Shown: positions 3,031 through 19,340 of the stretch, one piece after another | How positions within the stretch are numbered: the first letter of the stretch is position 1 | Layout: the number at the start of each line of letters is the position of its first letter | DNA from: Alphaproteobacteria bacterium | GTDB lineage: Bacteria; Pseudomonadota; Alphaproteobacteria; GM7ARS4; G965262615 | Length of the DNA: 64,000 bases | Reading direction: 5' to 3' | Assembly: GCA_965262615.1 (NCBI GenBank) | Contig: OZ253545.1 | Location: 384,001-448,000, forward strand | Notes under the pieces: model-generated | Told to the model about the DNA's origin: nothing | What the model saw: the letters and a program-made list of their open reading frames with translations, nothing else | Database searches by the model: none | Translations under genes and position numbers: made by a program

Positions 3031-5826
3031 CTAAAAAATAGAAACAGGTTTAGGCATTCTCGTATTGCTGAGCACTGCCACCGAGACATCAATCAGACCC
3101 TTTGCCGGTTCGCCTTTTTCATTGAGAATTCTAAACAACGCCGCTCTCCCTTGCATGCTTACCGTGAAAGGCTCATTGTACCATGTCCAGTTTTCGCCAT
3201 TGTGAATGCGCGTCACTTTAGCGCCGATGACCGCTCGTTTGCTTTCCGGTTCTATTTGTGGGGTTTCAAGAGCAATCAAGCCCGGACGGATGGGCCATTG
3301 TTGCGATGTATCATTGGTGGTGTTCAAACTTTTGTATTGTCTCGTTGTGATGTTCTTATCCAGTGCAAACACAATATCGCTTATGGTCAGCGTGGGAATA
3401 GAGTCATCTGTGACCGCATCGGTGATGGAGACCCGAACTTTGACGGAAAAACGACGCGTCGTGATGGCAGCGAAGGGATCTTTATAAACTGTGCTATTAT
3501 CACCATGGACGCTATAGCTGACCCGATAATTGGCATGGGAAAAAAATGCAAAACTGTAATACATTTCCAAAGCAAGATAGAAAGTCATTTCTTTGCCGAG
3601 ATCGAATGTCTCTGTTTCAAATTCAAAATTGCGCGCCAAACCGGCATAGCCTCCGATGGTGCTCGCCAGTTGACTGATGCCATTGTCTAAATCGCCGATG
3701 GTCTTATCTGAGCCAGTCTCTAATTGACCCTTTTGATTGAGAAAACATTTTTTAAAAGACCCTTTCCAGTTATTTGCTTGGGTGCTGTAGGAAAAGTCTA
3801 AATCACTTGTTTTGGAATAAGGAATCGTATGACGAATCGTTGTGGGTTCGGATAAAGCACTGCCGAAAGAGACGCTTTGGACGCGAAAAAAATAATGACC
3901 AAACGAAGGTGTTGAAATATCCAGAATAGTGTTCTTGGCATAGGGGAAAAGAGTTTCCATTTTGTTTAGATTCTTTCCGTAAGACACGCGAAAGTGTCTG
4001 TAATTCAAAGGATTTCTGACATCCCATGATAAGCGCAAAGTGGAGGAATTGATCTTTGTGACGCGCAGATTGGTGGGTTTGGGAGGAATGGCATCAAAAA
4101 CGGCATCATGGATGAAGACAATGCTCCAGTCGCTCATTTTGCCAAAAACATTCCCAGAGCGCAGGCGGAATTCATATTTAACCAGCTGTCCATAGTGAGA
4201 AATCAGAGCTGGGTCAATGGTGACATAGGTTTCGGTGAGTGCGCCATCAATGGTGAGGGACTGCCATGCTGTCGATCTTTTTTGGCGATAGTTCAATTCA
4301 TAATGGCGCACAGAGTCCGATCCATCGGCTTCCCATTGCACTAAGATGCGGTAGATGTACTTGCCGTTGGGGAATTGCTGGCGATACTGAATTCCTGAAT
4401 AAATGCTGACGCCACTGGGCGGGCGCAGTAAGGGACGGCGCGGCAACTGGCTATTGGGAGCGAGATCGCGACTGGAAGGCTCACCCAGATTCCAATCATA
4501 AATCGCCGCGGCATACTCACGCAGCAGCAGCGTGATGCCGCCGCCCATATCAATGCGCCAAGAAATGACGCGAAACAACTTATCCTTGTATCCCAATTGG
4601 GCGATGGTGACCTTCACCACATCCCACACGGCGATGGTGAGCGCGCTCAATTGGGCGGGAAATTCAATCATGGTGGATTGGCGCGCCTCTTCAAGGAAAA
4701 TTTTTGCCAAGTGGCGCGCTTCGGTTTCATCCGTGGTGGCGGGCAGTTCAATGTTGCGGGCGATACGGTCGCCACCATCTTGCGATTCATACATGTGATT
4801 GAGAACCATCGGGAACTCACACGCCTCCCAGTTGGCATCCTTATTGATAAAAGTGCCCCGCACCGCATTGAACAGTTCCGCTCGTGAGGGGCGAGGGGTC
4901 AATTTGATGGGGGCGCGCAGGTCATTTTCTGTCAGCCTGCCCACAGGCGTTGTGGCGACCCCCACATGCAGACGATACTTGCCATTGGTATAGACCAATG
5001 TGCCCGCACAGGATGTCAGCAAGTCTTCCAGAATGTTGGCACAGGAATCTTGCAAAATCACTTCGGTGTTGAGGCGATAGCGTTTGCGCCGCAATTGCTG
5101 GCGATTGATCACAATTTTTTCATCACAACTGTTGGCTGCCGCCTTCCAATAATTCCAATCAATCTCTGAGTCGCGCGCCATGCCACCATCGCTATGACGC
5201 AAGTAAGCCAATATGCATAACGCCGGATTATCACTCCATTTTATTTTTTGATCGCGAGGGTCATACACTTTCATCCCTTTGACATTCATCGTGATGGTGG
5301 GAATGCCGCGTGTCCAAATATTGGCATCCCATTCCACCCGTGCATACACATAGCAAATGCCATGTCCTCTGTGCGAGGTGCTCCAATCGGGGCATGCGGC
5401 AATCAAGTTTGTTGCGGGTTGATTGTTGTCGCCACTGAAAAATTCGGTGCGCACTTTATTTTTGATGGCATCGTCTGTGGCGTTGTAATCATCAAATTTA
5501 ATATTGCTCACCGCATGGCAGGCATGTCCCGCCAGAGCGATGACAAGGTGCAGGTATTTTTTATTGTGTCCCGAACTGTCGGCAAAGATGAGCACGCCTC
5601 CTGTGTTGATTTCACCGAAAACCATGCGTTGCGGCTCTGCGGATGCTCGCACATTATGCTTGCGTGTTTGTGCCGCTTGGTTGAGATTGACATTGCGCTG
5701 CTTTGAGCGAATCAAACCAAAAGAGACAATATCCAGCGTTTTGGAGACAGCCTTTGTCGTAAAACGCAGAGCCTTCTTGACCACTTTTTTGATGCCGCCG
5801 ATAAACCCGCCCATTACACTCTCCAC
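3031..5826 (-). CDS. Phage tail tip / host-specificity protein (J-like) with fibronectin-III-like C-terminal domains
   Basis: VKGMKVYDPR, WSDNPALCILAYL, AANSCDE, FNAVRGTF; FnIII-like PPKPTNLRV..LSW. Confidence 0.85.
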   Translation of the reverse strand: MESVMGGFIGGIKKVVKKALRFTTKAVSKTLDIVSFGLIRSKQRNVNLNQAAQTRKHNVRASAEPQRMVFGEINTGGVLIFADSSGHNKKYLHLVIALAGHACHAVSNIKFDDYNATDDAIKNKVRTEFFSGDNNQPATNLIAACPDWSTSHRGHGICYVYARVEWDANIWTRGIPTITMNVKGMKVYDPRDQKIKWSDNPALCILAYLRHSDGGMARDSEIDWNYWKAAANSCDEKIVINRQQLRRKRYRLNTEVILQDSCANILEDLLTSCAGTLVYTNGKYRLHVGVATTPVGRLTENDLRAPIKLTPRPSRAELFNAVRGTFINKDANWEACEFPMVLNHMYESQDGGDRIARNIELPATTDETEARHLAKIFLEEARQSTMIEFPAQLSALTIAVWDVVKVTIAQLGYKDKLFRVISWRIDMGGGITLLLREYAAAIYDWNLGEPSSRDLAPNSQLPRRPLLRPPSGVSIYSGIQYRQQFPNGKYIYRILVQWEADGSDSVRHYELNYRQKRSTAWQSLTIDGALTETYVTIDPALISHYGQLVKYEFRLRSGNVFGKMSDWSIVFIHDAVFDAIPPKPTNLRVTKINSSTLRLSWDVRNPLNYRHFRVSYGKNLNKMETLFPYAKNTILDISTPSFGHYFFRVQSVSFGSALSEPTTIRHTIPYSKTSDLDFSYSTQANNWKGSFKKCFLNQKGQLETGSDKTIGDLDNGISQLASTIGGYAGLARNFEFETETFDLGKEMTFYLALEMYYSFAFFSHANYRVSYSVHGDNSTVYKDPFAAITTRRFSVKVRVSITDAVTDDSIPTLTISDIVFALDKNITTRQYKSLNTTNDTSQQWPIRPGLIALETPQIEPESKRAVIGAKVTRIHNGENWTWYNEPFTVSMQGRAALFRILNEKGEPAKGLIDVSVAVLSNTRMPKPVSIF

Positions 5827-6281
5827 CCCATAAACGCACGGTCAATAGAAAATGACGCAAGCCCCCCCAAAGACAGAGCCTTGACAAAAACACCGCTTAA
5901 ATCCACCACCCCCACAATGGGCTGTCCAGCCGAGCCGCGAACGGAATACGAATGCACCAGAGCAATATCCCCGCGCTGCAAAAAAGAAGGCGATATTTTC
6001 TCAAAGTCTTTTAAGATCAGCGACAGTGCCCGCGGCAAAAAATGACGGTGGTCGTCATCATTTTCCTCGCGCAACAGAGCCTTCATCACATAATGAGATT
6101 TTTTGGCACTGGCGTAGGAAGGAACATTTCTCATGGGATTGTGATTGGTCATGGCTTTGATGGCACGGCTTGCGAAGTGACAGCAATCGCTTGTGCCAAA
6201 AACAAATGACTGTCCTTCCATGTGGGAAAAATAGTCATTGAGCCGTTGCTCCCAGTCGGTGAGGCGGGTGTGGGTGCTCAT
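5814..6281 (-). CDS. Tail-associated NlpC/P60-like protein (DUF6950-like)
   Basis: RLTDWEQRL, FVFGTSDCCHF, QRGDIALV; position just before the tip gene; ATG overlaps upstream TGA. Confidence 0.7.
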   Translation of the reverse strand: MSTHTRLTDWEQRLNDYFSHMEGQSFVFGTSDCCHFASRAIKAMTNHNPMRNVPSYASAKKSHYVMKALLREENDDDHRHFLPRALSLILKDFEKISPSFLQRGDIALVHSYSVRGSAGQPIVGVVDLSGVFVKALSLGGLASFSIDRAFMGWRV

Positions 6282-6874
6282 CACGCGCTGCCCCATTCAA
6301 TTTCTTGATGGGCGGTGCGCGTGACAAAAGAAAAAAACCGATCACTGCCATCGGTCGCCACATGGCTCTCGGAAGTGTAGCGTTTGATGCGAGGATATTC
6401 CCAGTCGGCAAGCAAATTTTTCAGCGTCAAAGAAATAGAGGCATCTTCGCCAAGAGATAGCGACATATTATCCATCCGACCCTGAAACAACAGCAGAGGG
6501 TCTTGAACCAATTGATGGTCGTCATCAAAAAAAACGATAAAAATCTTGCCATTGCGTCCTTGATAATGCTCTTGCAACGCCAAGGAAATCAGATGAGAAG
6601 GAATGCCACTCAATTGCAATTGCACACTGTAGGGACGAATTTCCGCTCCTTCTTCAAAAGAGGAGACCTCAAGCAAATCTCCCACCGCCGTGAAAATTTC
6701 CTTTTGATTGTCGTCATTGCTGTCAAAGGCGATATCGGAGGAGGCATCAGTGAGACGAATATGTCCCGAGAGAAAGTGCAAATCCACAAGAATGATGGGA
6801 CCAATCACCACGGAGGATTGGCTGGCTTGTTGCATCTGTTGCGAGATATGGCGAGAGGATTGTTGCGTCTGCAT
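6281..6874 (-). CDS. Phage baseplate hub / minor tail protein
   Basis: QLSGIP, YQGR, LFQGRMDNM, DRFFSFV..EIEWG; position in tail module. Confidence 0.72.
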   Translation of the reverse strand: MQTQQSSRHISQQMQQASQSSVVIGPIILVDLHFLSGHIRLTDASSDIAFDSNDDNQKEIFTAVGDLLEVSSFEEGAEIRPYSVQLQLSGIPSHLISLALQEHYQGRNGKIFIVFFDDDHQLVQDPLLLFQGRMDNMSLSLGEDASISLTLKNLLADWEYPRIKRYTSESHVATDGSDRFFSFVTRTAHQEIEWGSA

Positions 6875-7536
6875 CAGGGATAGCTCTCTATGAGTTCAAA
6901 TTGCATGGAGGCTTGATTCATTTTTTCAAAAGAGAATCGGCTTTGTTTGTCGTTGGCGAGACGCATGACGCAAAAACAATCATGGGTGATGATGCGACTG
7001 CCATCACGGGGCGGCAGGCGCAGCACAGGCGTGATGGCAAGATGAGCGACACCGTCAGACATCACAACGGCATCGCTGGTGAGGCTATGGAGTGCGTTGT
7101 GTCCATTGGCGAGCAAAATCGTGATGGTGTCTCCTTTTTTCAAGACGGTGCTGTCGCCATTTTTTTGCTGCCACCCTCGTGTGACAAGCTGCGAGCCCTT
7201 TTGATTCGCTCCCTTGATGACGGGCGCGCCACTGGCGTGTCCTTTGGGAGTTTTGCCATGAGGCGGAAAAAAGAGAAACTTCCTCTGAGGGCCATTGAGG
7301 GACAAAATAAATGCCGTCACCTGACGCACCATCTCTTCGCCATGAAGAGCATAGCTCACATGAGCGCGCCAGTGAGAATTGGGATTGGCGAGCAGTTGGG
7401 TGTAGCCCGTGAGGGGAGAGGTGTAGCTTTGGGTGTGTGTCACCAGTTCCCATTGCATGCGGGTGGGGGCTGGATTGGTCATCCAGCGGCGCAGCGAAGG
7501 AATGGTGGAGATGCTGATGCCTGAGTTTTGCGTCAT
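6874..7536 (-). CDS. Phage distal tail protein (putative)
   Basis: SPLTGYTQ, GANQKGSQL, LKKGD, ITPVLR; immediately follows tape measure. Confidence 0.65.
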   Translation of the reverse strand: MTQNSGISISTIPSLRRWMTNPAPTRMQWELVTHTQSYTSPLTGYTQLLANPNSHWRAHVSYALHGEEMVRQVTAFILSLNGPQRKFLFFPPHGKTPKGHASGAPVIKGANQKGSQLVTRGWQQKNGDSTVLKKGDTITILLANGHNALHSLTSDAVVMSDGVAHLAITPVLRLPPRDGSRIITHDCFCVMRLANDKQSRFSFEKMNQASMQFELIESYP

Positions 7537-7592
7537 GAGATGACAGCAAGGTAAGGGTTTTGCGGGTGATGGCTATGGCGTAATGGTGCGTG

Positions 7593-8534
7593 TTAGCGTC
7601 TTCCCATGGCGCGCGCATAGGAGCCACCCTCAAAAGAGCGGTGTGCGACTTCATCGGCGCCGGCGCGAGCGGCTTTTTGCACAATGCGCGGCTCTTCCTC
7701 CCGCAAGACGGCGCGAATGCGCTCTTCAACGCCTGAATCGGCGCCGCGCGCATCAATGTGATTGTTAATCACCACCGATGCTGACCCCCCGCCGCCACCG
7801 GCGGCAACGCCCAGCTCCCCCGAGGACAAACGGCGCAGCGGCATGATGGCTTCAGGTCCCGCCTCCCCCATCATGCCAAGCGGAAAGAGGGTGGATGAGC
7901 CCACAACGCCGCCGCGAGCAAAAGGAATCACCTCGCCGTGTTCAAACACGCCTCCTTTGGCAAAAAAGAAATTGGAGATTGTGTCCACAATGCTACCGAA
8001 ACCGCCGCCACCTAAAAAATTACCGATAAGACTCCCGCCGCCGCCTGATCCAACGCCAAACAAACTGCCCAATCCACCGCTCAGAGAACCAAAGAGCGCA
8101 CTAATGCCGCCGTCAATCAGTTTATCAAAAAGATTGCCGCCCAAGCCCTTCAAAATGCCGCCGATGTCCGGCGCATTCCATTCTCCCTTCAAAATGCCAT
8201 CCTTCAGGGTGTCTTTGAGCTCCGTGCCGATACTTTCGGTCGCCTCTTCAACTTCGTCTGAAAAATCTTTCGGCTTCAGCGCAATATCTGAGACAAAGTC
8301 ATTAAATCCTTTTTCAATGGCATTGGCACTGGCATCAAGGCTTTTGATTAGGCTCTCTCCGAATGAATCGCTGCCTTTGGCGGTTTTCTTGCTGCTTTCA
8401 GCAAGCTTGTCACTGCATTCTTCAAGTTTTTTGCTGTTGGCGGCGATGCGGTCAAAGGCGCGTTGCATTTCCTCCTGCTGTTCGGGGGAATAGTTAAAGA
8501 CGGCGGTGGTGAGTCTTCCTATGGGGGCTTCCAT
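7593..8534 (-). CDS. Short tail tape measure protein (313 aa)
   Basis: Helical N-terminus, Gly-rich middle, FAKGGVF/FARGGVV and GMMGEAGPEAIMPL motifs; AGAGGA RBS upstream. Confidence 0.85.
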   Translation of the reverse strand: MEAPIGRLTTAVFNYSPEQQEEMQRAFDRIAANSKKLEECSDKLAESSKKTAKGSDSFGESLIKSLDASANAIEKGFNDFVSDIALKPKDFSDEVEEATESIGTELKDTLKDGILKGEWNAPDIGGILKGLGGNLFDKLIDGGISALFGSLSGGLGSLFGVGSGGGGSLIGNFLGGGGFGSIVDTISNFFFAKGGVFEHGEVIPFARGGVVGSSTLFPLGMMGEAGPEAIMPLRRLSSGELGVAAGGGGGSASVVINNHIDARGADSGVEERIRAVLREEEPRIVQKAARAGADEVAHRSFEGGSYARAMGRR

Positions 8535-8564: not shown

Positions 8565-9380
8565 ATGATGATGTGGATGCGTGTGATTGTTTATGGAACG
8601 GCGTTATCTTTCCTGTTGGCGAGTGATGGCTCGGCGCGTCAAAACAGCGATCTGGAAATAGCGCAGCTGTGCGGCATTGCTCACGAAATCATACCATTGT
8701 TGTCTTTGAGACATTGCAAGAAAATCGTAAAAACCGAGAGGGGAAGGAATTGTGACAGTGATTATTTAGGTTGCTATGAAGTATCGTTGCGTCATGCTGA
8801 AAGTGATTCTTTTGTCACTTCGAATAACAATGAGAAGAATGTTTATTATGAGTTACGGATAGAGGAAGAGAATTGTTACGGCGGTTACGGTACTTATTTA
8901 GGCTGTTATGAAGTATCATTGCGTCATGCTGAAAGTGATTCTTTTGTCACTTCGAATAACAATGAGAAGAATGTTTATGATGAGTTACGGATAGCGGATG
9001 CTCATTGTCGTGGCACTTATTTAGGCTGTTATGAAGTGTCATTGCGTCATGCTGAGAGTGATTCTTTTGTCACTTTGAATCGCAATGATAAGAATATTTA
9101 TTATGAGTTACGGATAGCGGATGCGGGTTGTCGTGGTGCTTATTTGGGTTGTTATGAAGTATCATTGCGTCATGCTGAGAGTGATTCTTTTGTCACTTTG
9201 AATCGCAATGATAAGAATATTTATTATGAGTTACGGATAGCGGATGCGCGTTGTCGCGGTGCTTATTTGGGCTGTTATGAAGTATCATTGCGTCATGCTG
9301 AGAGTGATTCTTTTGTCACTTTGAATCGCAATGATAAGAATATTTATTATGAATTTCGGGTCTCCCCATCGGGCGGGTAA
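8565..9380 (+). CDS. Secreted Cys-repeat protein, paralog 1 (5 repeats)
   Basis: Start reassigned to ATG 8565 (GGGGAGGG RBS, same MMMW start as paralogs); signal peptide; YLGCYEVSL...YYELRI repeats. Confidence 0.85.
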   Translation: MMMWMRVIVYGTALSFLLASDGSARQNSDLEIAQLCGIAHEIIPLLSLRHCKKIVKTERGRNCDSDYLGCYEVSLRHAESDSFVTSNNNEKNVYYELRIEEENCYGGYGTYLGCYEVSLRHAESDSFVTSNNNEKNVYDELRIADAHCRGTYLGCYEVSLRHAESDSFVTLNRNDKNIYYELRIADAGCRGAYLGCYEVSLRHAESDSFVTLNRNDKNIYYELRIADARCRGAYLGCYEVSLRHAESDSFVTLNRNDKNIYYEFRVSPSGG

Positions 9381-9382
9381 CT

Positions 9383-10189
9383 ATGATGATGTGGATGCGT
9401 GGAATTGTTTATGGAACGGCATTATCTTTCCTGTTGGTGAGTGATGGCTCGGCGCGCCAAAAAAGCGATCAAGCAACGGTGCAGCTGTGCCAGATTATTC
9501 ACGACATCATGCCGTTGTTGTCTGTGAGACATTGCAAGAAAATCTTACAAACCGAGAGAGGGAGGCTTTGTGACAGTGATTATTTAGGCTGCTATGATGT
9601 ATCGCTGCTTTATTCTGAAGACAGTGTTTTTTATGGATTGGGTCGCGATGCTCGGGATATTTATTACCAACTTCGGATAGAAGATGGTCGTTGTTTCGGT
9701 GATTATTTAGGCTGTTATGAAGTGTCGTTGCTTTATTCTGAGGACAGTGTTTTTTATGGATTGGGTCGCGATGCTCGGGATATTTACTATCAACTTCGGA
9801 TAGAAGACGGTCGCTGTTTCGGTGATTATTTAGGCTGTTATGAAGTGTCGTTGCTTTATTCTGAGGACAGTGTTTTTTATGGATTGGGTCGCGATGCTCG
9901 GGATATTTACTATCAACTTCGGATAGAAGATGGTCGCTGTTTCGGTGATTATTTAGGCTGTTATGAAGTGTCATTGCTTTATTCTGAGGACAGTGTTTTT
10001 TATGGATTGGGTCGCGATGCTCGGGATATTTACTATCAACTTCGGATAGAGGACGGTCGCTGTTTCGGTGCTTATTTAGGCTGTTATGAAGTGTCGTTGC
10101 TTTATTCTGAGGACAGTGTTTTTTATGGATTGGGTCGCGATGCTCGGGATATTTACTATCAATTTCGGGTCTCCCCATCAGGCGGGTAA
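9383..10189 (+). CDS. Secreted Cys-repeat protein, paralog 2 (5 repeats)
   Basis: Signal peptide; unit CFGDYLGCYEVSLLYSEDSVFYGLGRDARDIYYQLRIEDGR. Confidence 0.85.
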   Translation: MMMWMRGIVYGTALSFLLVSDGSARQKSDQATVQLCQIIHDIMPLLSVRHCKKILQTERGRLCDSDYLGCYDVSLLYSEDSVFYGLGRDARDIYYQLRIEDGRCFGDYLGCYEVSLLYSEDSVFYGLGRDARDIYYQLRIEDGRCFGDYLGCYEVSLLYSEDSVFYGLGRDARDIYYQLRIEDGRCFGDYLGCYEVSLLYSEDSVFYGLGRDARDIYYQLRIEDGRCFGAYLGCYEVSLLYSEDSVFYGLGRDARDIYYQFRVSPSGG

Positions 10190-10191
10190 CT

Positions 10192-10998
10192 ATGATGATG
10201 TGGATGCGTGGAATTGTTTATGGAACGGCGTTATCTTTCCTGTTGGTGAGTGATGGCTTGGCGCGTCAAAACAGCGATCTGGAAATAGCGCAGCTGTGCG
10301 GCATTGCTCACGAAATCATGCCGTTGTTGTCTTTGAGACATTGCAAGAAAATCGTAAAAACCGAGAGGGGAAGGAATTGTGACAGTGATTATTTAGGTTG
10401 CTATGAAGTGTCATTGCTTCATGCTGATAGTCTTGTTTTTTCCACTTCTAAAAGGAGCGAGAAGAATCTTTATTATGAGTTACGGATAGCGGATGCGGGT
10501 TGTCGTGGTGCTTATTTAGGTTGTTATGAGGTTTCGTTGCTTCATGCTGATAATCTTGTTTTTTCCACTTCTAAAAGGAGCGAGAAGAATCTTTATTATG
10601 AGTTACGGATAGCGGATGCGGGTTGTCGTGGTGCTTATTTAGGTTGTTATGAGGTTTCGTTGCTTCATGCTGATAATCTTGTTTTTTCCACTTCTAAAAG
10701 GAGCGAGAAGAATCTTTATTATGAGTTACGGATAGCGGGTGTGGGTTGTCGTGGTGATTATTTGGGTTGTTATGAGGTTTCGTTGCTTCATGCTGATAAT
10801 CTTGTTTTTTCCACCTCTAAAAGGAGCGAGAAGAATCTTTATTATGAGTTACGGATAGCGGATACGCGTTGTGATGATGATTATTTAGGCTGTTATGAGG
10901 TTTCGTTGCTTCATGCTGATAATCTTGTTTTTTCCACTTCTAAAAGGAACGAGAAGAATCTTTATTATGAGTTGCGTGTCTCCTCATCAGGCTGGTAA
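10192..10998 (+). CDS. Secreted Cys-repeat protein, paralog 3 (5 repeats)
   Basis: Signal peptide; unit CRGAYLGCYEVSLLHADNLVFSTSKRSEKNLYYELRIADAG. Confidence 0.85.
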   Translation: MMMWMRGIVYGTALSFLLVSDGLARQNSDLEIAQLCGIAHEIMPLLSLRHCKKIVKTERGRNCDSDYLGCYEVSLLHADSLVFSTSKRSEKNLYYELRIADAGCRGAYLGCYEVSLLHADNLVFSTSKRSEKNLYYELRIADAGCRGAYLGCYEVSLLHADNLVFSTSKRSEKNLYYELRIAGVGCRGDYLGCYEVSLLHADNLVFSTSKRSEKNLYYELRIADTRCDDDYLGCYEVSLLHADNLVFSTSKRNEKNLYYELRVSSSGW

Positions 10999-11000
10999 CT

Positions 11001-11804
11001 ATGATGATGTGGCTGCGTGGAATTGTTTATGGAACGGCGTTATCTTTCCTGTTGGTGAGTGATGGCTTGGCGCGCCAAAACAGCGATCAAGCAACGGTGC
11101 AGCTGTGCCAGATTATTCACGGCATCATGCCATTGTTGTCTGTGGACAATTGCAAGAAAATCTTAAAAACCAAGAAAGGAAGTTGTCGTGGTGATTATTT
11201 AGGCTGTTATGAAGTATCATTGCTTCATGCTGATAGTGGTGTCTTTTACACTTTGAATCGCAACGAGCGGAATCTTTATTATGAGTTGCGGATAGCGGAT
11301 GCGGGTTGTCGTGGTGATTATTTAGGCTGTTATGAAGTGTCGTTGCTTCATGCTGATAGTGGTGTCTTTTACACTTTGAATCGCAATGAGCGGAATCTTT
11401 ATTATGAGTTACGGATAGCGGATGCGGGTTGTCGTGGTGATTATTTAGGCTGTTATGAAGTGTCGTTGCTTCATGCTGACAGTGGTGTCTTTTACACTTT
11501 GAATCGCAACGAGCGGAATATTTATTATGAGTTACGGATAGCGGATGCGGGTTGTCGTGGTGATTATTTAGGCTGTTATGAAGTATCATTGCTTCATGCT
11601 GACAGTGGTGTCTTTTACACTTTGAATCGCAACGAACGGAATATTTATTATGAGTTACGGATAGCGGATGCGGGTTGTCGTGGTGCTTATTTAGGCTGTT
11701 ATGAAGTATCATTGCTTCATGCTGATAGTGGTGTCTTTTACACTTTGAATCGCAATGAGCAGAATATTTATTATGAGTTACGGGTCTCCCCATCAGGCTG
11801 GTAA
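11001..11804 (+). CDS. Secreted Cys-repeat protein, paralog 4 (5 repeats, four CRGDYLGC)
   Basis: Signal peptide; unit CRGDYLGCYEVSLLHADSGVFYTLNRNERNLYYELRIADAG. Confidence 0.85.
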   Translation: MMMWLRGIVYGTALSFLLVSDGLARQNSDQATVQLCQIIHGIMPLLSVDNCKKILKTKKGSCRGDYLGCYEVSLLHADSGVFYTLNRNERNLYYELRIADAGCRGDYLGCYEVSLLHADSGVFYTLNRNERNLYYELRIADAGCRGDYLGCYEVSLLHADSGVFYTLNRNERNIYYELRIADAGCRGDYLGCYEVSLLHADSGVFYTLNRNERNIYYELRIADAGCRGAYLGCYEVSLLHADSGVFYTLNRNEQNIYYELRVSPSGW

Positions 11805-11806
11805 CT

Positions 11807-12733
11807 ATGATGATGTGGATGCGTGTGATTGTTTATGGAACGGCGTTATCTTTCCTGCTGGTGAGTGATGTCTCGGCGCGCTCTCAAGAGACAGTGCTGT
11901 GCCACATTGTTCACAGCGTCATGCCATTGTTGTCTGTGGACAATTGCAAGAAAACCTTACAAACCAAAAGAGGAAGACGTTGTTCCAGTGACCGTTATTT
12001 AGGCTTTTATGATGTATCGTTGCTTTATTCTGCGGATGATATTTTTCGTGGATTGGGTGACGATCATCGGGATATTTACTATCAACTTCGGATAGAAGAT
12101 GATGGCTGTGCCAGTGACCGTTATTTAGGTTTTTATGATGTATCGTTGCTTTATTCTGCGGATGATATTTTTCGTGGATTGGGTGACGATCATCGAGATA
12201 TTTATTACCAACTTCGGATAAAAGATGGTGGTTGTTCCAGTGACCGTTATTTAAGCTGTTATGATGTATCGTTGCTTTATTCTGCGGATGATATTTTTCG
12301 TGGATTGGGTGACGATGCTCGGGATATTTACTATCAACTTCGGATAGAAGACGGTCGCTGTTCCAGTGCTTATTTAGGCTGTTATGATGTATCGTTGCTT
12401 TATTCTGCGGATGATATTTTTCGTGGATTGGGTGACGATGCTCGGGATATTTACTATCAACTTCGGATAGAAGATGGTCGCTGTTCCAGTGCTTATTTAG
12501 GCTGTTATGATGTGTCGTTGCTTTATTCTGCGGATGATATTTTTCGTGGATTGGGTGACGATGCTCGGGATATTTACTATCAACTTCGGATAGAAGATGG
12601 TCGCTGTTCCAGTGCTTATTTAGGCTGTTATGATGTGTCGTTGCTTTATTCTGCGGATGATATTTTTCGTGGATTGGGTGACGATGCTCGGGATATTTAC
12701 TATCAATTCCGTGTCTCCTCATCAGGCTGGTAA
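11807..12733 (+). CDS. Secreted Cys-repeat protein, paralog 5 (6 repeats)
   Basis: Signal peptide; unit CSSAYLGCYDVSLLYSADDIFRGLGDDARDIYYQLRIEDGR. Confidence 0.85.
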   Translation: MMMWMRVIVYGTALSFLLVSDVSARSQETVLCHIVHSVMPLLSVDNCKKTLQTKRGRRCSSDRYLGFYDVSLLYSADDIFRGLGDDHRDIYYQLRIEDDGCASDRYLGFYDVSLLYSADDIFRGLGDDHRDIYYQLRIKDGGCSSDRYLSCYDVSLLYSADDIFRGLGDDARDIYYQLRIEDGRCSSAYLGCYDVSLLYSADDIFRGLGDDARDIYYQLRIEDGRCSSAYLGCYDVSLLYSADDIFRGLGDDARDIYYQLRIEDGRCSSAYLGCYDVSLLYSADDIFRGLGDDARDIYYQFRVSSSGW

Positions 12734-12735
12734 CT

Positions 12736-13539
12736 ATGATGATGTGGATGCGTGGAATTGTTTATGGAACGGCGTTATCTTTCCTGTTGGTGAGTGATGG
12801 CTCGGCGCGATTCGATGGTCGTCAAGAGACGGTGCTGTGCAAGATTGTTCACGAAATCATGCCGTTGCTGCCTGTGACCAATTGTAAGAAAATCTTACAA
12901 TCTAAAAGGGGAAGTGAATGTTCCAGTGCTTATTTAGGCTGTTATGAAGTGTCGTTGCTTTTTGCTGATAGCCGTTCCTTTTATACTTGGGATAGCAAGG
13001 AAGGGAATATTTATTATGAGTTACGGATAGCCGATTCGGATTGTGTTGGTGCTTATTTAGGTTGTTATGAGGTGTCACTGCTTTTTGCTGATAGCCGTTC
13101 CTTTTATACTTGGGATAGCAAGGAAGGGAATATTTATTATGAGTTACGGATAGCCGATTCGGATTGTGTTGGTGCTTATTTAGGCTGTTATGAGGTGTCG
13201 TTGCTTTTTGCTGATAGCCGTTCCTTTTATACTTGGGATAGCAAGAAAGGGAATATTTATTATGAGTTACGGGTAGCTGATTCGGATTGTGTTGGTGCTT
13301 ATTTGGGTTGTTATGAGGTGTCACTGCTTTTTGCTGATAGCCGTTCCTTTTATACTTGGGATAGCAAGGAAGGGAATATTTATTATGAGTTACGGATAGC
13401 CGATTCGGACTGTAGTGGTGCTTATTTAGGTTGCTATGAGGTTTCATTGCTTCCTGCGAAGAGTCGTTCTTTTTATACTTGGGATAGCAATGAGGGGAAT
13501 ATTTATTATGAGTTTCGGGTCAACCCATCGGGCGGGTAA
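12736..13539 (+). CDS. Secreted Cys-repeat protein, paralog 6 (5 repeats)
   Basis: Signal peptide; unit CVGAYLGCYEVSLLFADSRSFYTWDSKEGNIYYELRIADSD. Confidence 0.85.
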   Translation: MMMWMRGIVYGTALSFLLVSDGSARFDGRQETVLCKIVHEIMPLLPVTNCKKILQSKRGSECSSAYLGCYEVSLLFADSRSFYTWDSKEGNIYYELRIADSDCVGAYLGCYEVSLLFADSRSFYTWDSKEGNIYYELRIADSDCVGAYLGCYEVSLLFADSRSFYTWDSKKGNIYYELRVADSDCVGAYLGCYEVSLLFADSRSFYTWDSKEGNIYYELRIADSDCSGAYLGCYEVSLLPAKSRSFYTWDSNEGNIYYEFRVNPSGG

Positions 13540-13544
13540 TTATT

Positions 13545-13860
13545 TTATTTTTGTTGTTTGAGACACTCGCGCTCCAGAATTTGAATTTTGTGAAAATCCC
13601 GTGGCGAGATATGCAGATGTGCGAGGCGTGCGGCAATGGACAGGGCGTTGTAATCCAGCCCAATCCACTGTCCTGAGGGAGCGATGCGCCACTGGGTGAT
13701 GACCAGCAAAAAAAGCCGCAACGCGCGCTCATTGGATGGCAACAGTGTGAATTCGTGCGGTGCGTGGGCATCAATCACCTCTTGCGGTGCGCCCAGAGCC
13801 TTGAGGTCATTGTGGCGGGCAGTGCCGTCCGTCAGGAGGTGACGGACGGCACCGATGAGT
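13545..13860 (-). CDS. Tail assembly chaperone, -1 frame extension (lambda T-like, DUF1799-like)
   Basis: TQWR, GLDYNAL, IQILERECL; frame is open from the slippery site at ~13860 to the stop at 13545. Confidence 0.8.
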
Positions 13861-13867
13861 TTTTTTC
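13822..13867 (-). promoter_or_regulatory. Programmed -1 ribosomal frameshift signal (A AAA AAC plus 13-bp hairpin)
   Basis: Minus strand GAA AAA AAC, 6-nt spacer, then GTGCCGTCCGTCA-cctcc-TGACGGACGGCAC perfect stem. Confidence 0.88.
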
Positions 13868-14191
13868 AGACGCTGCTCCCGACAAGGATTCAATATAAGC
13901 TTTGAGCAATGCCGCGCGAATGTAGGGGATGTCAATCATGCGCTTTTTCCAATGGTCATCAAAGGGCAGTGGCTGGTCGTGTTCATCCACTATGTCACGC
14001 CAGCCCACAAGAACCTTGTGAAGCAAGCGCACATCGCCATTGTCGCCATCATCCACCAGCTGACGCAAAGACTGCTGTCCCATCTCCACAAAGCAGGCGG
14101 TGAATTGTTGCTGCTGGATGCCGTTTTCTGAAGGCACGCTCACCACAATGGGGCACGCAAAGCGGCGGTCAATGATGATTTTAAAGCTCAT
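13832..14191 (-). CDS. Tail assembly chaperone (lambda G-like)
   Basis: Follows tail tube gene; VLVGWRDIVDE..PLPF; ends in EKN slippery site. Confidence 0.8.
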   Translation of the reverse strand: MSFKIIIDRRFACPIVVSVPSENGIQQQQFTACFVEMGQQSLRQLVDDGDNGDVRLLHKVLVGWRDIVDEHDQPLPFDDHWKKRMIDIPYIRAALLKAYIESLSGAASEKNSSVPSVTS

Positions 14192-14200
14192 GATGCGTGC

Positions 14201-15124
14201 CTATTGGGTGGTGATGGTGAGTTCATCATTGCCCTCATGGGGCAGCAGATGCATGTCAAATTTGAGGGTGCGAATGCCGTCTCGGTCACCGTAGCTGGGC
14301 TGTGTCAATTGAACTTTGGGCGCGCTCCATCCCACAACAGAGCCGCTTTTTGTGCCCAAAGTGAGCGAAAAAATGCCTGTGGCGGCGTTTTCCATCTTGT
14401 CAAAAAAGTTGAACGACGAGACGGACGGGTCTTTAATCTCAATGCTTCCTGTGGCGTGACGCTCCGTGATCTCCACCGATTCAGAATTCATGTAAGAGAT
14501 GAATGGCGCAGAGACTCCCATATCCAATGAGAGCGAGGCGGTGGTGACATTGCGTCCAAACAGCACCATGCTGGCGACCTCATTTTTTGACAGTGTGAGA
14601 GGCGTTTTGAAGGCACTGTAATTGGCATTGGGCAAGGATGCAGCCTCTGGAGTCTGGTAGAGTCCCCTGAAGGTGAAAGAAAGAGACGGGTAGTCGTTGG
14701 CGTTCAAAGAGGCATTGAAGGTGCCGCGCGCACCCGTGACCTTATGCAATGTGCCATCCTGATACACATAAAAAGTGAGGGAGGAAAAATGATCGGAGAT
14801 GGGCTTGTAGAAAACGGCGTTGCTGGTGCTGTTTTGCTTAAATCCGCATCCCTTGAGCAACAAAGCCCATGCGGGGGCGACATTTTTTGTTCCCGAACCG
14901 GCGGCGGTGACGGAGAACGATAATTGCACATGGCGATTGGACAGGGCGGCAAAATTGCCACCAAGCCACTGTTTGACGGCGGGCAGCTCTTTGCGTTCAG
15001 CATTGAGAGGCGATATGTCAAGATCGCTGACCTCAATGGCATTGGTGCTGGCGGACGGTGTGGCATCTCGAGCGTAAGAGCTCTCAAGGGCGGCGAGGAT
15101 GACTCGTTTTTTGGTCAGAGGCAT
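14201..15124 (-). CDS. Major tail tube protein
   Basis: AALESSY, LLKGCGF, HKVTGARGTF, LSFTFRGLY, YGDRDGI; position in module. Confidence 0.8.
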   Translation of the reverse strand: MPLTKKRVILAALESSYARDATPSASTNAIEVSDLDISPLNAERKELPAVKQWLGGNFAALSNRHVQLSFSVTAAGSGTKNVAPAWALLLKGCGFKQNSTSNAVFYKPISDHFSSLTFYVYQDGTLHKVTGARGTFNASLNANDYPSLSFTFRGLYQTPEAASLPNANYSAFKTPLTLSKNEVASMVLFGRNVTTASLSLDMGVSAPFISYMNSESVEITERHATGSIEIKDPSVSSFNFFDKMENAATGIFSLTLGTKSGSVVGWSAPKVQLTQPSYGDRDGIRTLKFDMHLLPHEGNDELTITTQ

Positions 15125-15133
15125 GGGATTCTC

Positions 15134-15571
15134 CTAAGGTTGGATGGTTTTTTGAGTGACGAATTGATCCTCCCACCACAGAACACCTTTGCCGAATTGA
15201 ACGAGGCGTCCTTTGATAAAATCGGGGGCACTGTGGGTGTCGTCTTGCTGTTTTTTGATGAGAGGAATCAGAGCCGTGCGCGCTTTGAGCACATGAGTCA
15301 GTTGTCCCAAAGAGCCGGTGTGGCGCGGTTGTTGATGAGACGCTTGATAGCACTGCAGAATGGAAAAGCGCACAGCGATTGTTTGTGAGCCATCGGAAAA
15401 ACGGCTGCTTTTGGCATTTTCCTCAAGGGGCACCACATATGCTGCGGGCAGCTGATGGGATGGCGGGGCATCTTTTTTGTTGGCAATCATCATCACCGAG
15501 CCACTGCTGGCAAAGAGGTCGTCAGCGGTCAGTTGGGTGATGATGGATTGAAAGAAACGGCGGCTGTCCAT
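15134..15571 (-). CDS. Tail terminator / neck protein (putative)
   Basis: PAAYVVPL, GVLWWEDQF; lies between adaptor and tube genes. Confidence 0.65.
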   Translation of the reverse strand: MDSRRFFQSIITQLTADDLFASSGSVMMIANKKDAPPSHQLPAAYVVPLEENAKSSRFSDGSQTIAVRFSILQCYQASHQQPRHTGSLGQLTHVLKARTALIPLIKKQQDDTHSAPDFIKGRLVQFGKGVLWWEDQFVTQKTIQP

Positions 15572-15575
15572 GATG

Positions 15576-15980
15576 CTAAAAGGAAGACAGCCGTGAGCCG
15601 CTCAATTGACGAGGATGAGCCTGCCATTTCACTTCATTGGTGTCTGTGGGTGGTTGGTTGAGATCGTAAGTGCCGTGGGCGATGTCTTCCAGCATTTGTT
15701 TGGCATCTTGATAGCGTTTGCGCACTTCGTCACTGGGGTCGGTGGTGTGAAGGCGAAAGCGCGCAATATCGCATGCCAAAATGGTGAGCAGAGGGAATGT
15801 CTCGGAGAGCGGCAGCTGATAGCGTTTGAGCAAGTAAATATTGATCTCGGCATCGGCATCCTCTAAGGCGCGCGTGACGATGCTTGAATTGATGGTGGTC
15901 TGATTGACACGGTCGGTGAGGGCAATGAGTTCATCTTGCCCAAATTTTTTCTTGAGGTCGTCCAAAGAGGCGTATGACAT
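15576..15980 (-). CDS. Mu gp36-like head-tail adaptor (DUF1320)
   Basis: MSYASLDDL, ALEDADAEINIYL..RYQLPL, ACDIARFRL. Confidence 0.88.
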   Translation of the reverse strand: MSYASLDDLKKKFGQDELIALTDRVNQTTINSSIVTRALEDADAEINIYLLKRYQLPLSETFPLLTILACDIARFRLHTTDPSDEVRKRYQDAKQMLEDIAHGTYDLNQPPTDTNEVKWQAHPRQLSGSRLSSF

Positions 15981-16038
15981 GGAAAAATCCTTGTTGGTGT
16001 GTGCCTCAGCCGTTGTGTGCGGCTGAGGCACGAGGCGG

Positions 16039-16938
16039 TTATGCGAGGCGCGGCTCTATATGAACATCCACCACATTGTGATTGACATTGGATGAGCCAT
16101 TGCTGAGTCGTTCGGCTTTGACGACCGCATAGGCGGCGGCACGCAAGGCGGGCGGAACGATGAGCAAGTTGGGCATGATATTCAAAGGACGCTCGTTGTC
16201 ACCTTTGAGGCTCATCATGGCACTCATGGCTTGATTGAAATTGTCGCTGGTGAGAGCAGCTTTTGAGCCATATGCCAGTTGCCACAATCCGTATCCTGCG
16301 GCGGCGCGTGCATCCACGCCGTAGATGTACTCTTTGCGGTAGAAGACATTATCATCGCCGTCATCATCTTTGCGCATGAGCGTGGGGGCTTTGCGAGTTT
16401 GATAGATGAGGGGTTTGATGGCGCGATGGCGATCCACGAGGAACCAAGGCGTTTTGTCACCGGTTTGCATGTTGGAGGCGGTTTTCTTTTTGCCATTGGC
16501 ATCGGTGACGGGATGACTGGTGTCAAAGAAAGGACGCCCGTCATAGCCTGTTTTGGTGAAGCCGTCATTGAGCAGGGGCCAGACGAGATCATCGGGCAGT
16601 TGAGCGGCGGCATCTCCCATGTTGGCGAACAGCAGTTTGTATGCGCCCAGTTGTTCGTCTTCAATGTCGTTGCGAGCAACGGCGAGGGTGAGTTCCCAGT
16701 CTTCGTTTTCAATGGAAAAGCCGTGTTGCGAGACTCCTCGCACCACGCGATCGCCCACCCAAGGACGCAAAGCGGGCAGATCGCCCAGCCAAGGATAGGT
16801 GTTACGCGTGGTATTAGAGGGGGCATCCATAGCCACATGGGAGTAGCTCGCCCGATGACCCTCAAAGGCTTCGGCGAAAGATTCATTGAAGCCCACATAA
16901 GCGGACTCAAGAATGTCGGGGGTGATGGTGATTGCCAT
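16039..16938 (-). CDS. Mu-like major capsid protein (gpT family)
   Basis: YPWLGDLP, WVGDR, YDGRPFFDTSHP, KPLIYQTR, YGVDARAAAGYGLWQLAYGS. Confidence 0.93.
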   Translation of the reverse strand: MAITITPDILESAYVGFNESFAEAFEGHRASYSHVAMDAPSNTTRNTYPWLGDLPALRPWVGDRVVRGVSQHGFSIENEDWELTLAVARNDIEDEQLGAYKLLFANMGDAAAQLPDDLVWPLLNDGFTKTGYDGRPFFDTSHPVTDANGKKKTASNMQTGDKTPWFLVDRHRAIKPLIYQTRKAPTLMRKDDDGDDNVFYRKEYIYGVDARAAAGYGLWQLAYGSKAALTSDNFNQAMSAMMSLKGDNERPLNIMPNLLIVPPALRAAAYAVVKAERLSNGSSNVNHNVVDVHIEPRLA

Positions 16939-16965
16939 AGTGATTAGTCTCCTTACGGTATGTGG

Positions 16966-17385
16966 TTAGTTGATGATGACCCAGACACTTTTGTTATCAT
17001 TGTCCAGAGCAAGCACTGTGCCTGCTGATTTGCGGGCATTGCTGTTGCTGTTGGTGCTGACGGTTTGGTCATCCATGGCATAGACGGTTGTGCCGATGTG
17101 TGACGGGGTGACCTTGTGGCTGTTGCTTGTGTCATTGTCAAACAGAAAGACACCTCGCTCCAAAGTGACAGTGGCATTGCCTGCGGTGGTTTGAGCATCA
17201 ATACCTGTTTGGGCGATGCCCATGATGGGGCTGTTGGCAGAAGCGTGTCCTGCCGGCACGGCATAGCCATGGCGATCAAGGGCGACCATAGCGCCGGCAT
17301 AGAGGGTGACCGATGCCGCAACAGAATAGGCAACGCTTGTGCCATCACGGCGAGCGGTCGGTTTGTCTTGGGTGAGCGCAGTCAT
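16966..17385 (-). CDS. Capsid decoration/cement protein (putative)
   Basis: MTALTQD, LYAGAMVAL, ERGVFLFDN, VYAMDDQTV; lies between protease and capsid. Confidence 0.7.
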   Translation of the reverse strand: MTALTQDKPTARRDGTSVAYSVAASVTLYAGAMVALDRHGYAVPAGHASANSPIMGIAQTGIDAQTTAGNATVTLERGVFLFDNDTSNSHKVTPSHIGTTVYAMDDQTVSTNSNSNARKSAGTVLALDNDNKSVWVIIN

Positions 17386-17403
17386 AAAGCTCTCCTTATG
17401 AGG

Positions 17404-18471
17404 TTAGAGGGTGGAAGAATCTGACGAATCACTGTCTTTGAAGCGCGCTCGCGCGGTGGCAAAACGCTGATGATCCAAATTCAGCTGGCGACAGATGGAT
17501 AGATCCGCTTCACTCAGCGCGGATTGGTGAGAAGACGAAGCATGAGAAGACGGTGTCACAACGGGGGTGAGGGTGGGCTGTCCTTGGAGAAATTGCTCAA
17601 AGCCTTCGGAATCTTGATTGTGATAGCTGATCGCCCACGAACGCAAGGACGGCGGAATTTTGCCTTTGGCAATCGCATCACTGATGCGTTGCTCGCGCGC
17701 TTGGTGGCTTGCGGTCTCTTGGGTCATGGCAAGGCTTTGTGCCAAGGATGATGCGTGGGCGGCTTGTTCGGAAATGATTTTGCTCAAATTCTCTTGCAAT
17801 GCTGACCAATCAGGATCGCCATTGGCATCGGTTTGAGTCACGCCGCTCAGTGTGAGCAATTGGGTGTAGGCATCGCGGGCGGCGGCGGTTTGTTGTTTCA
17901 GGTGAGCGATGGCATCCAAAATGGCTTGCAAGGACAATTCATCATTCTCCCTTTGAATATTGAGGCTTTGAGCAATGGCTTGTGTGGTGTCATGTGTCTG
18001 GTTATGACGGTCCACATTGAGTGCCTTGAGGGCGAGGTTCGGATTATTGGTCAAGCCGGCACGCAAAATACGAAGAATGATGCCGTCATCATCATGAAGA
18101 AAAACGGGACTCAAATAGCGGTATTCTCCTTGTTGAATGGCTTGAGCGGCTTTGGGAGTCCATTCCACATGTCCCCAGATGCCATCGTCTCGTTTTTCAA
18201 TGTCACGAATCCATCCAGCCGCAGGAGCTGCCATGCCCACACCGGGGCGAGCGGCATAATCGGTTTGATGGTCGTAATCAATCACCAAGCCTGTTTCTGA
18301 TTGGCTGGCGCGAATGACTTCATCTATGTTTTCAACATGATAGGGACCGCGTCCATCCTGCCCTGAAAAAATGCCAGACGGCAGCAAATGAACGCATGGA
18401 GGAGCTTTGCCTTCCAGCAAAACTGAATGAATTTCAAGACTCTCGGAAGAGGGATCTGTGTGGCAGCTCAT
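17404..18471 (-). CDS. Mu-like prohead protease/scaffold (gpI family)
   Basis: GQDGRGP, IDYDHQT, APAAGWI, VEWT, YRYLSPVF, AGLTNNPNL; AAGGAG RBS. Confidence 0.93.
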   Translation of the reverse strand: MSCHTDPSSESLEIHSVLLEGKAPPCVHLLPSGIFSGQDGRGPYHVENIDEVIRASQSETGLVIDYDHQTDYAARPGVGMAAPAAGWIRDIEKRDDGIWGHVEWTPKAAQAIQQGEYRYLSPVFLHDDDGIILRILRAGLTNNPNLALKALNVDRHNQTHDTTQAIAQSLNIQRENDELSLQAILDAIAHLKQQTAAARDAYTQLLTLSGVTQTDANGDPDWSALQENLSKIISEQAAHASSLAQSLAMTQETASHQAREQRISDAIAKGKIPPSLRSWAISYHNQDSEGFEQFLQGQPTLTPVVTPSSHASSSHQSALSEADLSICRQLNLDHQRFATARARFKDSDSSDSSTL

Positions 18472-19338: not shown

Positions 19339-19340
19339 GT

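What the first reader, a model, noticed from the sequence alone, without database searches (positions are those of the whole stretch)
3031..18471. Apparently domesticated Mu-head / short-tail virion module: possible new GTA-like particle
Seen: protease, decoration, capsid, adaptor, terminator, tube, chaperones, tape measure, distal tail, hub, NlpC-like and tip ORFs are all intact and tightly packed. Composition is host-like (33/60 GC at 16681-16740), and the module abuts core genes on both sides. No terminase, portal, Mu gpF/gpG-like, MuA/MuB, repressor or lysis gene is recognisable. Established: transposable siphophages such as D3112 and RcapMu combine Mu-type heads with non-contractile tails, whereas RcGTA does not use Mu gpT/gpI-family head genes. 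Inference: intact structural genes kept in such a compact genome suggest a host-maintained particle (GTA-like or tailocin-like) with packaging genes elsewhere or absent.
Basis: partly seen in the sequence, partly recalled or inferred. Interest (0 to 1): 0.75.

Follow-up and report, generated by a model that had tools for sequence, protein, structure and literature searches.

The report
Split, host-kept Mu-phage particle genes
A small-genome, probably sponge-dwelling bacterium keeps the head, short-tail and DNA-packaging genes of a Mu-type phage intact in two distant blocks, without the genes for copying, moving or bursting out, and trimmed the way gene transfer agents are, so it is a good candidate for an independently evolved gene-transfer particle, although no particle has been seen.

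Summary
The structural genes are real and intact, but not tightly packed: six opposite-strand, low-GC repeat genes (8565-13539) sit inside the tail operon. The packaging genes lie about 410 kb away (Mor-type activator, DUF2730, small terminase, TerL, Mu portal). No transposase, MuB, repressor, gpF, gpG or endolysin was found in this single-contig, 98%-complete genome. Three reductions look selected, not decayed. The small terminase is 80 aa and lacks the N-terminal DNA-recognition half; orthologues at 58-60% identity are 80-81 aa. The portal stops about where Mu's is cleaved. The tape measure is 313 aa (300-314 in six orthologue clusters). Strains from three studies carry the head and tube genes at core-gene-like divergence, and two bridge the module-eipB junction. 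Best reading: a host-kept, GTA-like particle from a Mu-type siphovirus (0.55 for DNA transfer, about 0.8 for host-kept in some role). Release route, expression and particles are unshown. Similar transposase-less sets occur in another alphaproteobacterium and, with a separate portal origin, in Nitrospirota. This scan noted such sets before in other genomes (unchecked notes); my nine literature searches found no Mu-derived GTA.

The parts
17404..18471 (-). Mu gpI-type prohead protease (355 aa); first gene of the head-tail block. Its partner block (Mor-type activator, DUF2730, 80-aa TerS, TerL, portal) lies outside the window at G000:C1:1514448-1518077
   Evidence: PF10123 E 6e-62; keeps 27 of 31 conserved columns; second block
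16966..17385 (-). virion structural protein of Mu-like heads (139 aa; 'decoration' is a guess)
   Evidence: phrog_1731 E 5e-34
16039..16938 (-). Mu gpT major capsid protein (299 aa)
   Evidence: PF10124 E 4e-112; matches solved gpT-type capsid chains 8rkc, 8rkx, 9jod; orthologues at 99, 86, 83%
15576..15980 (-). gp36 head-tail adaptor; probable ATG start at 15980
   Evidence: PF07030; a 2-base insertion in another strain falls just upstream of that ATG
15134..15571 (-). tail terminator / stopper (Mu gp37-like)
   Evidence: PF23840 E 4e-10
14201..15124 (-). non-contractile tail tube protein
   Evidence: PF18906; 27-35% to RcapMu, RC1, vB_ThpS-P1 and S-LBS1 tubes
13545..14191 (-). two tail assembly chaperone ORFs (13832-14191, 13545-13778)
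   Evidence: phrog_569, DUF1799; an A-run at the end of the first may be a frameshift site (inference)
8565..13539 (+). inserted array of six paralogous signal-peptide proteins with 41-aa cysteine-containing repeats; cargo, not phage; function unknown
   Evidence: GC 41-43%; only two real homologues among 50% representatives; adjacent to the chaperone in run X7 too
7593..8534 (-). short tape measure protein (313 aa)
   Evidence: phrog_1716 C-terminal part; six orthologue clusters 300-314 aa with the same ends
6874..7536 (-). distal tail protein
   Evidence: phrog_1302 E 2e-32
6281..6874 (-). tail hub-type protein
   Evidence: phrog_2048 E 3e-39
5814..6296 (-). DUF6950 protein (NlpC/P60-like position in the tail tip; activity not tested)
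   Evidence: PF22262; 27-28% to the ORFs before the tip gene in prophage loci L057 and L077
3031..5826 (-). tail tip / central fibre (931 aa) with fn3 domains and a lower-GC C-terminal third
   Evidence: phrog_5616, phrog_31, PF13550, PF00041; T5 pb3 match E 1e-9; GC 44% at 3031-3999
2943..3019 (+). flanking tRNA-Arg(TCT); no duplicated att-like end found
   Evidence: tRNA-Pro/NDUS4/tRNA-Arg block present in 4 of 4 genomes of the order
18526..19338 (-). flanking host EipB-like gene; junction with the protease gene conserved in other strains
   Evidence: PF08904; bridged by X7 record 27 and X6 record 21

Best explanation
The block is the head-tail half of a domesticated Mu-type transposable siphovirus that works like a gene transfer agent. 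Shown: all structural genes are intact; activator, terminase and portal sit in a second block; the genes for transposition, replication, immunity and lysis were not found; TerS, portal and tape measure are shortened, TerS and tape measure in the same way across relatives. Inferred: the Mor/C-type activator switches on both blocks in some cells; proheads form around a portal that needs no trimming; TerL, recruited by a TerS without its sequence-reading domain, fills them with headfuls of host DNA; a tail of about 49 nm is added; particles leave by an unidentified, possibly host-encoded lysis route; recipients take the DNA in with ComEC and DprA. A particle could not carry both blocks, so the system cannot spread itself.
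For: Second block found. Nothing else phage-like by tblastn of 1908 ORFs from 6 transposable phages and 1 prophage, by 33 chosen transposition, repressor, lysis and fibre proteins (only AmpD and a LexA-like hit) or by profiles of gpF, gpG and gp26 built from 29-40 homologues; Mu transposase C-terminus and gpF ring in 5 of 5 genomes chosen as full-prophage controls but not in G000. TerS: 80 aa, matches positions 98-185 of a 186-position gp27 profile (hhalign 95.7%; alignment); 3 of 3 homologues in the 44-140 aa range are 80, 80, 81 aa at 99, 60, 58%, against 173-239 aa in 35 of 35 prophage ORFs and 165-266 aa in 64 of 64 IMG/VR ORFs. RcGTA TerS likewise lacks the N-terminal DNA-binding domain (PMC6854486, passages). 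Portal 414 aa aligns to Mu gp29 26-409; Mu virions lack the last 124 of 512 residues, and their neck is portal, gp36 and gp37 only (PMC11915804, passages). Tape measure 300-314 aa in six clusters at 77-97% against 768-1351 aa in 14 of 14 prophage ORFs. Strains in 3 studies diverge 4.9-6.8% over listed module pieces and 3.9-7.9% over listed core pieces; junction to eipB bridged in 2 runs. 24 of 38 listed coding changes at third positions, no stop. ComEC and DprA intact; no RcGTA-type capsid in the genome.
Against: No endolysin, holin or spanin found, and no separate tail-fibre gene. No expression or particle data. The 5-kb opposite-strand insert leaves 30 bases before the tape-measure start, so the distal tail genes may be poorly transcribed. 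A shared late-promoter box, clear in 4 of 4 phage controls (scores 18-37, 0 of 1014 background), is not significant here (score 11, 5-6% of background). The proteins are divergent: tube keeps 21 of 38 and capsid 69 of 77 conserved columns, below the control minima of 31 and 70 (columns were defined on the controls). The one fully listed tract has pN/pS 0.34, moderate constraint only. The other three genomes of the order lack the set. 9 of 56 GTDB capsid loci also lack a portal within 8-10 kb, so broken Mu prophages are common. ComEC and DprA are in 4 of 4 order genomes, so they are not specific. A Mu-type T=7 head would hold about 37 kb, larger than known GTA heads (head size here unknown).
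Confidence: 0.55

Rival explanations
1. Host-kept particle with another job than gene transfer: a DNA-filled or empty short-tailed particle, or unreleased structure, used against competing symbionts, as a decoy or for contact with the animal host.
For: Same signs of maintenance; no lysis genes found; reduced symbiont genome; repurposing of GTA genes in symbionts was proposed in PMC9254644 (abstract).
Against: TerL with its conserved motifs, portal and a GTA-type TerS are kept, which only makes sense if DNA is packaged; no toxin or effector gene in either block.
Confidence: 0.22
2. An old cryptic Mu-like prophage, fixed in the lineage's ancestor, split by rearrangement and decaying slowly without function.
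For: Broken Mu prophages are common; lysis and fibre genes lost; foreign array inserted in the tail operon; divergent tube and capsid; promoter box not significant.
Against: All 13 + 5 ORFs open; TerS and tape-measure lengths fixed across orthologues down to 58% and 77% identity; whole genes missing with no remnants between neighbours; listed indels in the module in-frame or non-coding; excess of third-position changes.
Confidence: 0.15
3. A helper-dependent element: the blocks are switched on by, or supply parts to, an incoming Mu-like phage (satellite-like or interference role), not acting on their own.
For: Lysis, gpF and gpG would be supplied by a helper; a Mor/C-type activator could cross-talk with a related phage.
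Against: No att sites, integrase other than XerC/XerD or replication genes; no close relative among 50,697 phage records (best 48%) or in IMG/VR (best TerL 57%).
Confidence: 0.08

Closest known systems
RcGTA of Rhodobacter capsulatus (Rhodogtaviriformidae) and GTAs as defined in PMC9662315
   Same: Structural genes endogenised in several loci, no replication or integration genes, TerS without N-terminal DNA-binding domain (PMC6854486), short tape measure; residues 176-257 of the tape measure hit NCBIfam RcGTA_tape (95 bits).
   Different: Head, portal and terminase are Mu-type, not HK97-type (no PF05065 in the genome); the tape-measure hit is far below the 220-bit cut-off; no GafA-type DUF6456 but a Mor/C-type activator; no endolysin found; no experimental particle.
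Transposable siphoviruses with Mu gpT/gpI heads (JBD30/D3112 group, RS138, RC1, vB_ThpS-P1, RcapMu, StopSmel)
   Same: Late-gene order mor, DUF2730, terS, terL, portal, protease, phrog_1731, gpT, gp36, terminator, tube, chaperones, tape measure, tip; capsid 40-48%, portal 37-50%, TerL up to 41% identical.
   Different: No MuA, MuB, c, ner, GemA, Gam, lysis cassette, gp26, gpF, gpG or fibres; split between portal and protease; TerS, portal and tape measure shortened.
GTA gene sets in reduced Rickettsiales/Holosporaceae endosymbionts (PMC9254644, abstract only)
   Same: Phage-derived particle genes kept under selection in small symbiont genomes, role unclear.
   Different: Those keep RcGTA-type head and portal and lose tails; this keeps a Mu-type head and a whole short tail.
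Tailocins (F-type, recalled)
   Same: Non-contractile tail genes without a replication module.
   Different: Head, portal and terminase are retained; lysis cassette and fibres, which tailocin loci carry, were not found.

Membership tests
Gene transfer agent (PMC9662315 definition) | Caudoviricete-derived particle proteins | tested here: met
Gene transfer agent (PMC9662315 definition) | Mostly encapsidates random host DNA | not testable with these tools
   only indirect: TerS without its N-terminal half
Gene transfer agent (PMC9662315 definition) | Fully endogenised, often in several loci | tested here: met
   two blocks, no transposase, integrase or att repeat; genomic half of the criterion only
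Gene transfer agent (PMC9662315 definition) | Genes cannot be packaged whole | tested here: inconclusive
   blocks about 410 kb apart, far beyond a Mu-type headful; head size and packaged length unknown, and one block alone might fit
Gene transfer agent (PMC9662315 definition) | Vertical inheritance and co-diversification with hosts | tested here: inconclusive
   same junction and core-like divergence in strains; lineage-specific orthologue clade; no host tree could be matched to the orthologues; absent from the 3 other genomes of the order
Gene transfer agent (PMC9662315 definition) | DNA delivered to other cells | not testable with these tools
   uncultured organism
RcGTA family (Rhodogtaviriformidae) | HK97-type RcGTA capsid and RcGTA head-tail cluster | tested here: not met
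   PF05065 0 of 4 order genomes, control rings in Caulobacter; capsid is PF10124
RcGTA family (Rhodogtaviriformidae) | GafA-type activator (DUF6456; family link recalled) | tested here: not met
   control rings in Caulobacter
Functional Mu-like transposable prophage | MuA transposase and MuB | tested here: not met
   (positive controls ring in 5 of 5)
Functional Mu-like transposable prophage | One contiguous genome with repressor, lysis cassette, gpF and gpG | tested here: not met
Functional Mu-like transposable prophage | Mu-type head and packaging proteins (gpI, gpT, gp36, gp27-29) | tested here: met
Tailocin | Tail genes without head and packaging genes | tested here: not met
   capsid, protease, portal and TerL intact

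The most novel reading that the evidence does not exclude
Mu-type transposable phages are a repeated, unrecognised source of gene transfer agents: this sponge-associated lineage, another alphaproteobacterium (G203) and a group of Nitrospirota relatives each ended with a transposase-less, gpF-less, short-portal, short-tail set under a Mor-type activator, twice with a cut-down small terminase; here even the lysis cassette is gone, so release would use a host route.
Probability: 0.4. Interest if true: 0.85.

Novelty: new variant of a known kind. Interest (0 to 1): 0.66.

Why it matters
The recognised GTA families I read about (PMC9662315) do not include one built from Mu-type head genes, and loss of the TerS DNA-binding domain was proposed from RcGTA alone as the mark of a GTA (PMC6854486). 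A second, unrelated terminase family that lost the same domain and kept the shortened form across divergent relatives would support that rule and give a sequence signature (short TerS, mature-length portal, no gpF, short tape measure, no transposase) for finding GTAs now annotated as broken Mu prophages. It would also offer a route for gene exchange in a reduced animal-associated symbiont.

Tried and rejected
JGI metagenome scans with the capsid and the tape-measure alignment, and IMG/VR scans with both, found no relative, so no relative's whole locus could be read. Cluster-member look-up could not be made (database off). No RNA holder listed; this says nothing on expression. The structure of the repeat protein was uninformative (pLDDT 35) and the Atlas gave no usable hit; the tip C-terminus gave only unnamed viral clusters. 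The TerS-TerL complex prediction never ran, so binding is untested. Shared late-promoter box: not significant; a pattern fitted to both sites afterwards matches only those two sites and is no test. No CtrA or LexA-type box at either block (patterns recalled). tRNA-Arg as an integration site: rejected, no duplicated end and no integrase beyond XerC/XerD. PF02914 and PF11860 searches rang nowhere, controls included, and are not counted as evidence; PF09299 first rang nowhere and was repeated with positive controls. The single Amidase_2 gene is AmpD-like and in a host neighbourhood. The same-order capsid hit in G002 is an orphan gene. Common origin of the G000 and Nitrospirota portals: rejected. 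Homology of the Nitrospirota 80-aa ORF to gp27 is weak (hhalign 7.6%) and rests mainly on position. Run X11 gave only short low-depth pieces and is not counted.
Full report
Observation. The window is G000:C1:384001-448000 of a 1,542,258-base, single-contig, 98%-complete genome; the class search and the two-piece tmRNA fit an alphaproteobacterium (class name inferred), and runs holding the stretch include sponge and marine metagenomes. Thirteen intact minus-strand ORFs between 18471 and 3031 match a Mu-type head and a non-contractile tail. The module ends 11 bases from tRNA-Arg(TCT), without a duplicated tRNA end, and lies 37-53 kb from the GC-skew minimum.

The packaging genes are elsewhere. 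At C1:1514448-1518077, between yraN and rodA, lie a Mor/C-type late activator (phrog_836, E 4e-18), DUF2730, an 80-aa ORF, TerL (481 aa) and a Mu portal (414 aa). That is about 410 kb from the window block if the chromosome is circular. Together the two blocks give the late-gene order of RS138, RC1, vB_ThpS-P1, StopSmel, RcapMu and B3 with whole genes missing (lysis cassette, gp26, gpF, gpG, fibres) and a break before the protease. In Mu the C protein activates promoters at lys and I (PMC4461284, start of abstract in the listing), so the break falls at a natural transcription boundary (inference).

Nothing else of the phage was found. tblastn of 1908 ORFs from six phages and one prophage hit only the two blocks plus housekeeping-type genes. 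Thirty-three chosen transposase, MuB, repressor, ner, GemA, Gam, lysis and fibre proteins hit only AmpD and a LexA-like ORF. Profiles of gpF, gpG and gp26 from 29-40 homologues found nothing. PF09299 and PF04233 rang in 5 of 5 genomes chosen as full-prophage controls and not in G000. Only XerC and XerD-type recombinases are present. Phage lysozyme, GH108 and M15_4 were not found. These are searches by family, not a scan of all proteins.

Three parts are shortened. (1) The 80-aa ORF matches only the C-terminal half of Mu gp27-type small terminases (PF11985 positions 107-172 of 173; 98-185 of 186, E 1e-6 genome-wide; hhalign 95.7%; alignment). All 3 homologues found in the 44-140 aa range are 80, 80 and 81 aa, at 99% (8 members), 60% and 58%; longer forms were not searched there. 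Prophage gp27 ORFs are 173-239 aa (35 of 35) and 165-266 aa (64 of 64), measured from the first possible start. RcGTA TerS lacks the same N-terminal DNA-binding domain, proposed as the mark of GTA-type terminases (PMC6854486, passages; PMC7947584, passages). (2) The portal aligns to Mu gp29 26-409 and JBD30 portal 17-417; Mu virions lack the last 124 residues, and their connector is portal, gp36 and gp37 (PMC11915804, passages), all encoded here. 49 of 51 control portals are 504 aa or more, 66 of 67 IMG/VR portals 461 or more. (3) The tape measure is 313 aa; six clusters at 77-97% are 300-314 aa with the same ends, against 768-1351 aa in 14 of 14 controls. Scaling from JBD30 (180 nm, 1158 residues; PMC11445458, passages) gives about 49 nm.

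Relatives. No genome of the same family is held; of the three other genomes of the order none has the portal and one has an orphan capsid gene. In the protein collection the capsid has clusters at 99% (11 members), 86% and 83%, all 299 aa, then 55% or less; they form one clade on a long stem (FastTree). I laid 4 of 14 listed runs, from four studies, on 13545-23300. From the listed pieces (50 more not shown; my arithmetic): X6 differs 4.9% in the module and 3.9% in core genes, X7 5.0% and 6.8%, X12 6.8% and 7.9%; X11 gave short pieces only. X7 record 27 (15949-20894) and X6 record 21 (18399-19040) bridge the protease-eipB junction, and X7 continues into the repeat array. Of 12 listed indels (21 not shown) three fall in the module span: two of six bases and one upstream of the gp36 ATG. 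Of the 40 listed substitutions (of 1148, chosen by the tool as best supported), 38 are coding in the chaperone and tube genes: 24 at third positions, 19 of 32 codons silent, no stop; a 69-codon tract gives pN/pS 0.34.

Results against. No release mechanism is visible; CcGTA shows that lysis can depend on a non-phage system (PMC13236601, abstract), but nothing was tested here. The shared late-promoter box seen in 4 of 4 phage controls is not significant in G000. Tube (21 of 38) and capsid (69 of 77) keep fewer conserved columns than any control; TerL keeps 28 of 33, portal 49 of 58, protease 27 of 31, gp36 11 of 11, and the TerL motif residues are invariant across 16 aligned sequences (roles recalled). 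Broken Mu prophages are common: 9 of 56 capsid loci lack a nearby portal. ComEC and DprA are intact but are so in 4 of 4 order genomes. Related heads are T=7 with 37-kb genomes, large for a GTA.

Parallel cases. Among 80 GTDB capsid loci, L047 (Nitrospirae bacterium JdFR-86) has repressor, Mor, endolysin, an 80-aa ORF before TerL, a 417-aa portal, no gpF and a 172-aa ORF in the tape-measure position, between host genes. 20 of 61 genomes around it have a Mu portal, 18 with frames of 461 aa or less; of 18 such genomes tested, 1 has the transposase C-terminus and 1 a partial gpF; 8 of 15 fetched regions have a homologue of the short ORF before TerL (82-196 aa). The G000 portal groups with alphaproteobacterial prophage portals, and a joint clade with seven Nitrospirota portals is rejected (p-AU 0.0002 with, 0.0003 without the nested row L066; quick trees on 27 and 26 chosen rows). 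Of 35 of 400 other class genomes with a Mu portal I looked at seven; G203 has the unsplit form in 15 kb: Mor, DUF2730, a roughly 170-aa TerS, TerL, 440-aa portal, B3-type head, short tape measure and the closest distal tail, hub and tip among the loci I hold (27-43%), with no lysis gene in the block and no transposase or gpF match. Earlier unchecked notes of this scan describe similar sets in other lineages.

Comparison and verdict. It works like a GTA on genomic grounds but is not an RcGTA-family member, not a functional Mu prophage and not a tailocin. Of the six defining features in PMC9662315 (Introduction read) two are met, two inconclusive and two untestable here. Nine searches of the held library and passages of PMC13626063, PMC8987985, PMC12724379 and PMC5340873 showed no Mu-derived GTA; subscription journals and supplements were not seen. 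Odds: GTA-like DNA transfer 0.55, other host-kept role 0.22, decaying prophage 0.15, helper-dependent 0.08. Interest 0.66.

Noticed in passing
window 8565-13539: Six secreted-type paralogues with 41-aa cysteine-containing repeats, nearly identical within a gene and different between genes; only two fragments elsewhere are real homologues. Inserted antisense in the tail operon with 5 and 30 bases to its neighbours.
   Followed up: partly
window 7593-8534 and P0125-P0130: Tape-measure orthologues are mosaic: P0126 differs from P0125 at 23 of the first 105 columns but at 2 of the rest, suggesting recombination next to the repeat array.
   Followed up: partly
G000:C1:1513905-1514239 (L007): The 3' end of yraN is duplicated in tandem (171 bases, 89%) just before the packaging block, followed by a TTGACA promoter-like site and a possible 63-aa ORF upstream of the activator.
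   Followed up: partly
L047:350-17608 and L130-L143: Compact transposase-less Mu-like clusters with short portal and no gpF in Nitrospirae JdFR-86 and many of its relatives; L136 and L137 have the portal without an adjacent terL; their portals fall in two clades.
   Followed up: partly
L102:7789-20000 and L103 (G203:C1:793788-808806): Unsplit 15-kb Mu-like cluster without lysis genes, gpF or transposase match in another small alphaproteobacterial genome, with the same tail type as this window but a B3-type head.
   Followed up: partly
L009:17500-18423 (G002): Orphan Mu gpT capsid gene right behind a 2373-aa repeat-rich secreted-type protein gene in a same-order genome.
   Followed up: no
G000:C1:1509118-1510524 (L007): About four tandem copies of a unit of roughly 270 bases spanning the rdgB end and hemW start.
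   Followed up: no
G000:C1:1426947-1440388: Three copies of tRNA-Ser(CGA) about 6.5 kb apart in the lowest-GC 25-kb bin (45%), typical of stacked insertions.
   Followed up: no
G000:C1:828145-830352: Two tandem copies of a gene pair behind a tRNA-like stretch, one resembling a Panacea/SocA-type antitoxin by eye (label recalled).
   Followed up: no
L045, L049, L062, L080, L084, L085, L088, L095, L098: Nine GTDB loci with a Mu capsid gene but no portal within 8-10 kb upstream; several have Mor, protease, capsid and tape measure in unusual order.
   Followed up: no
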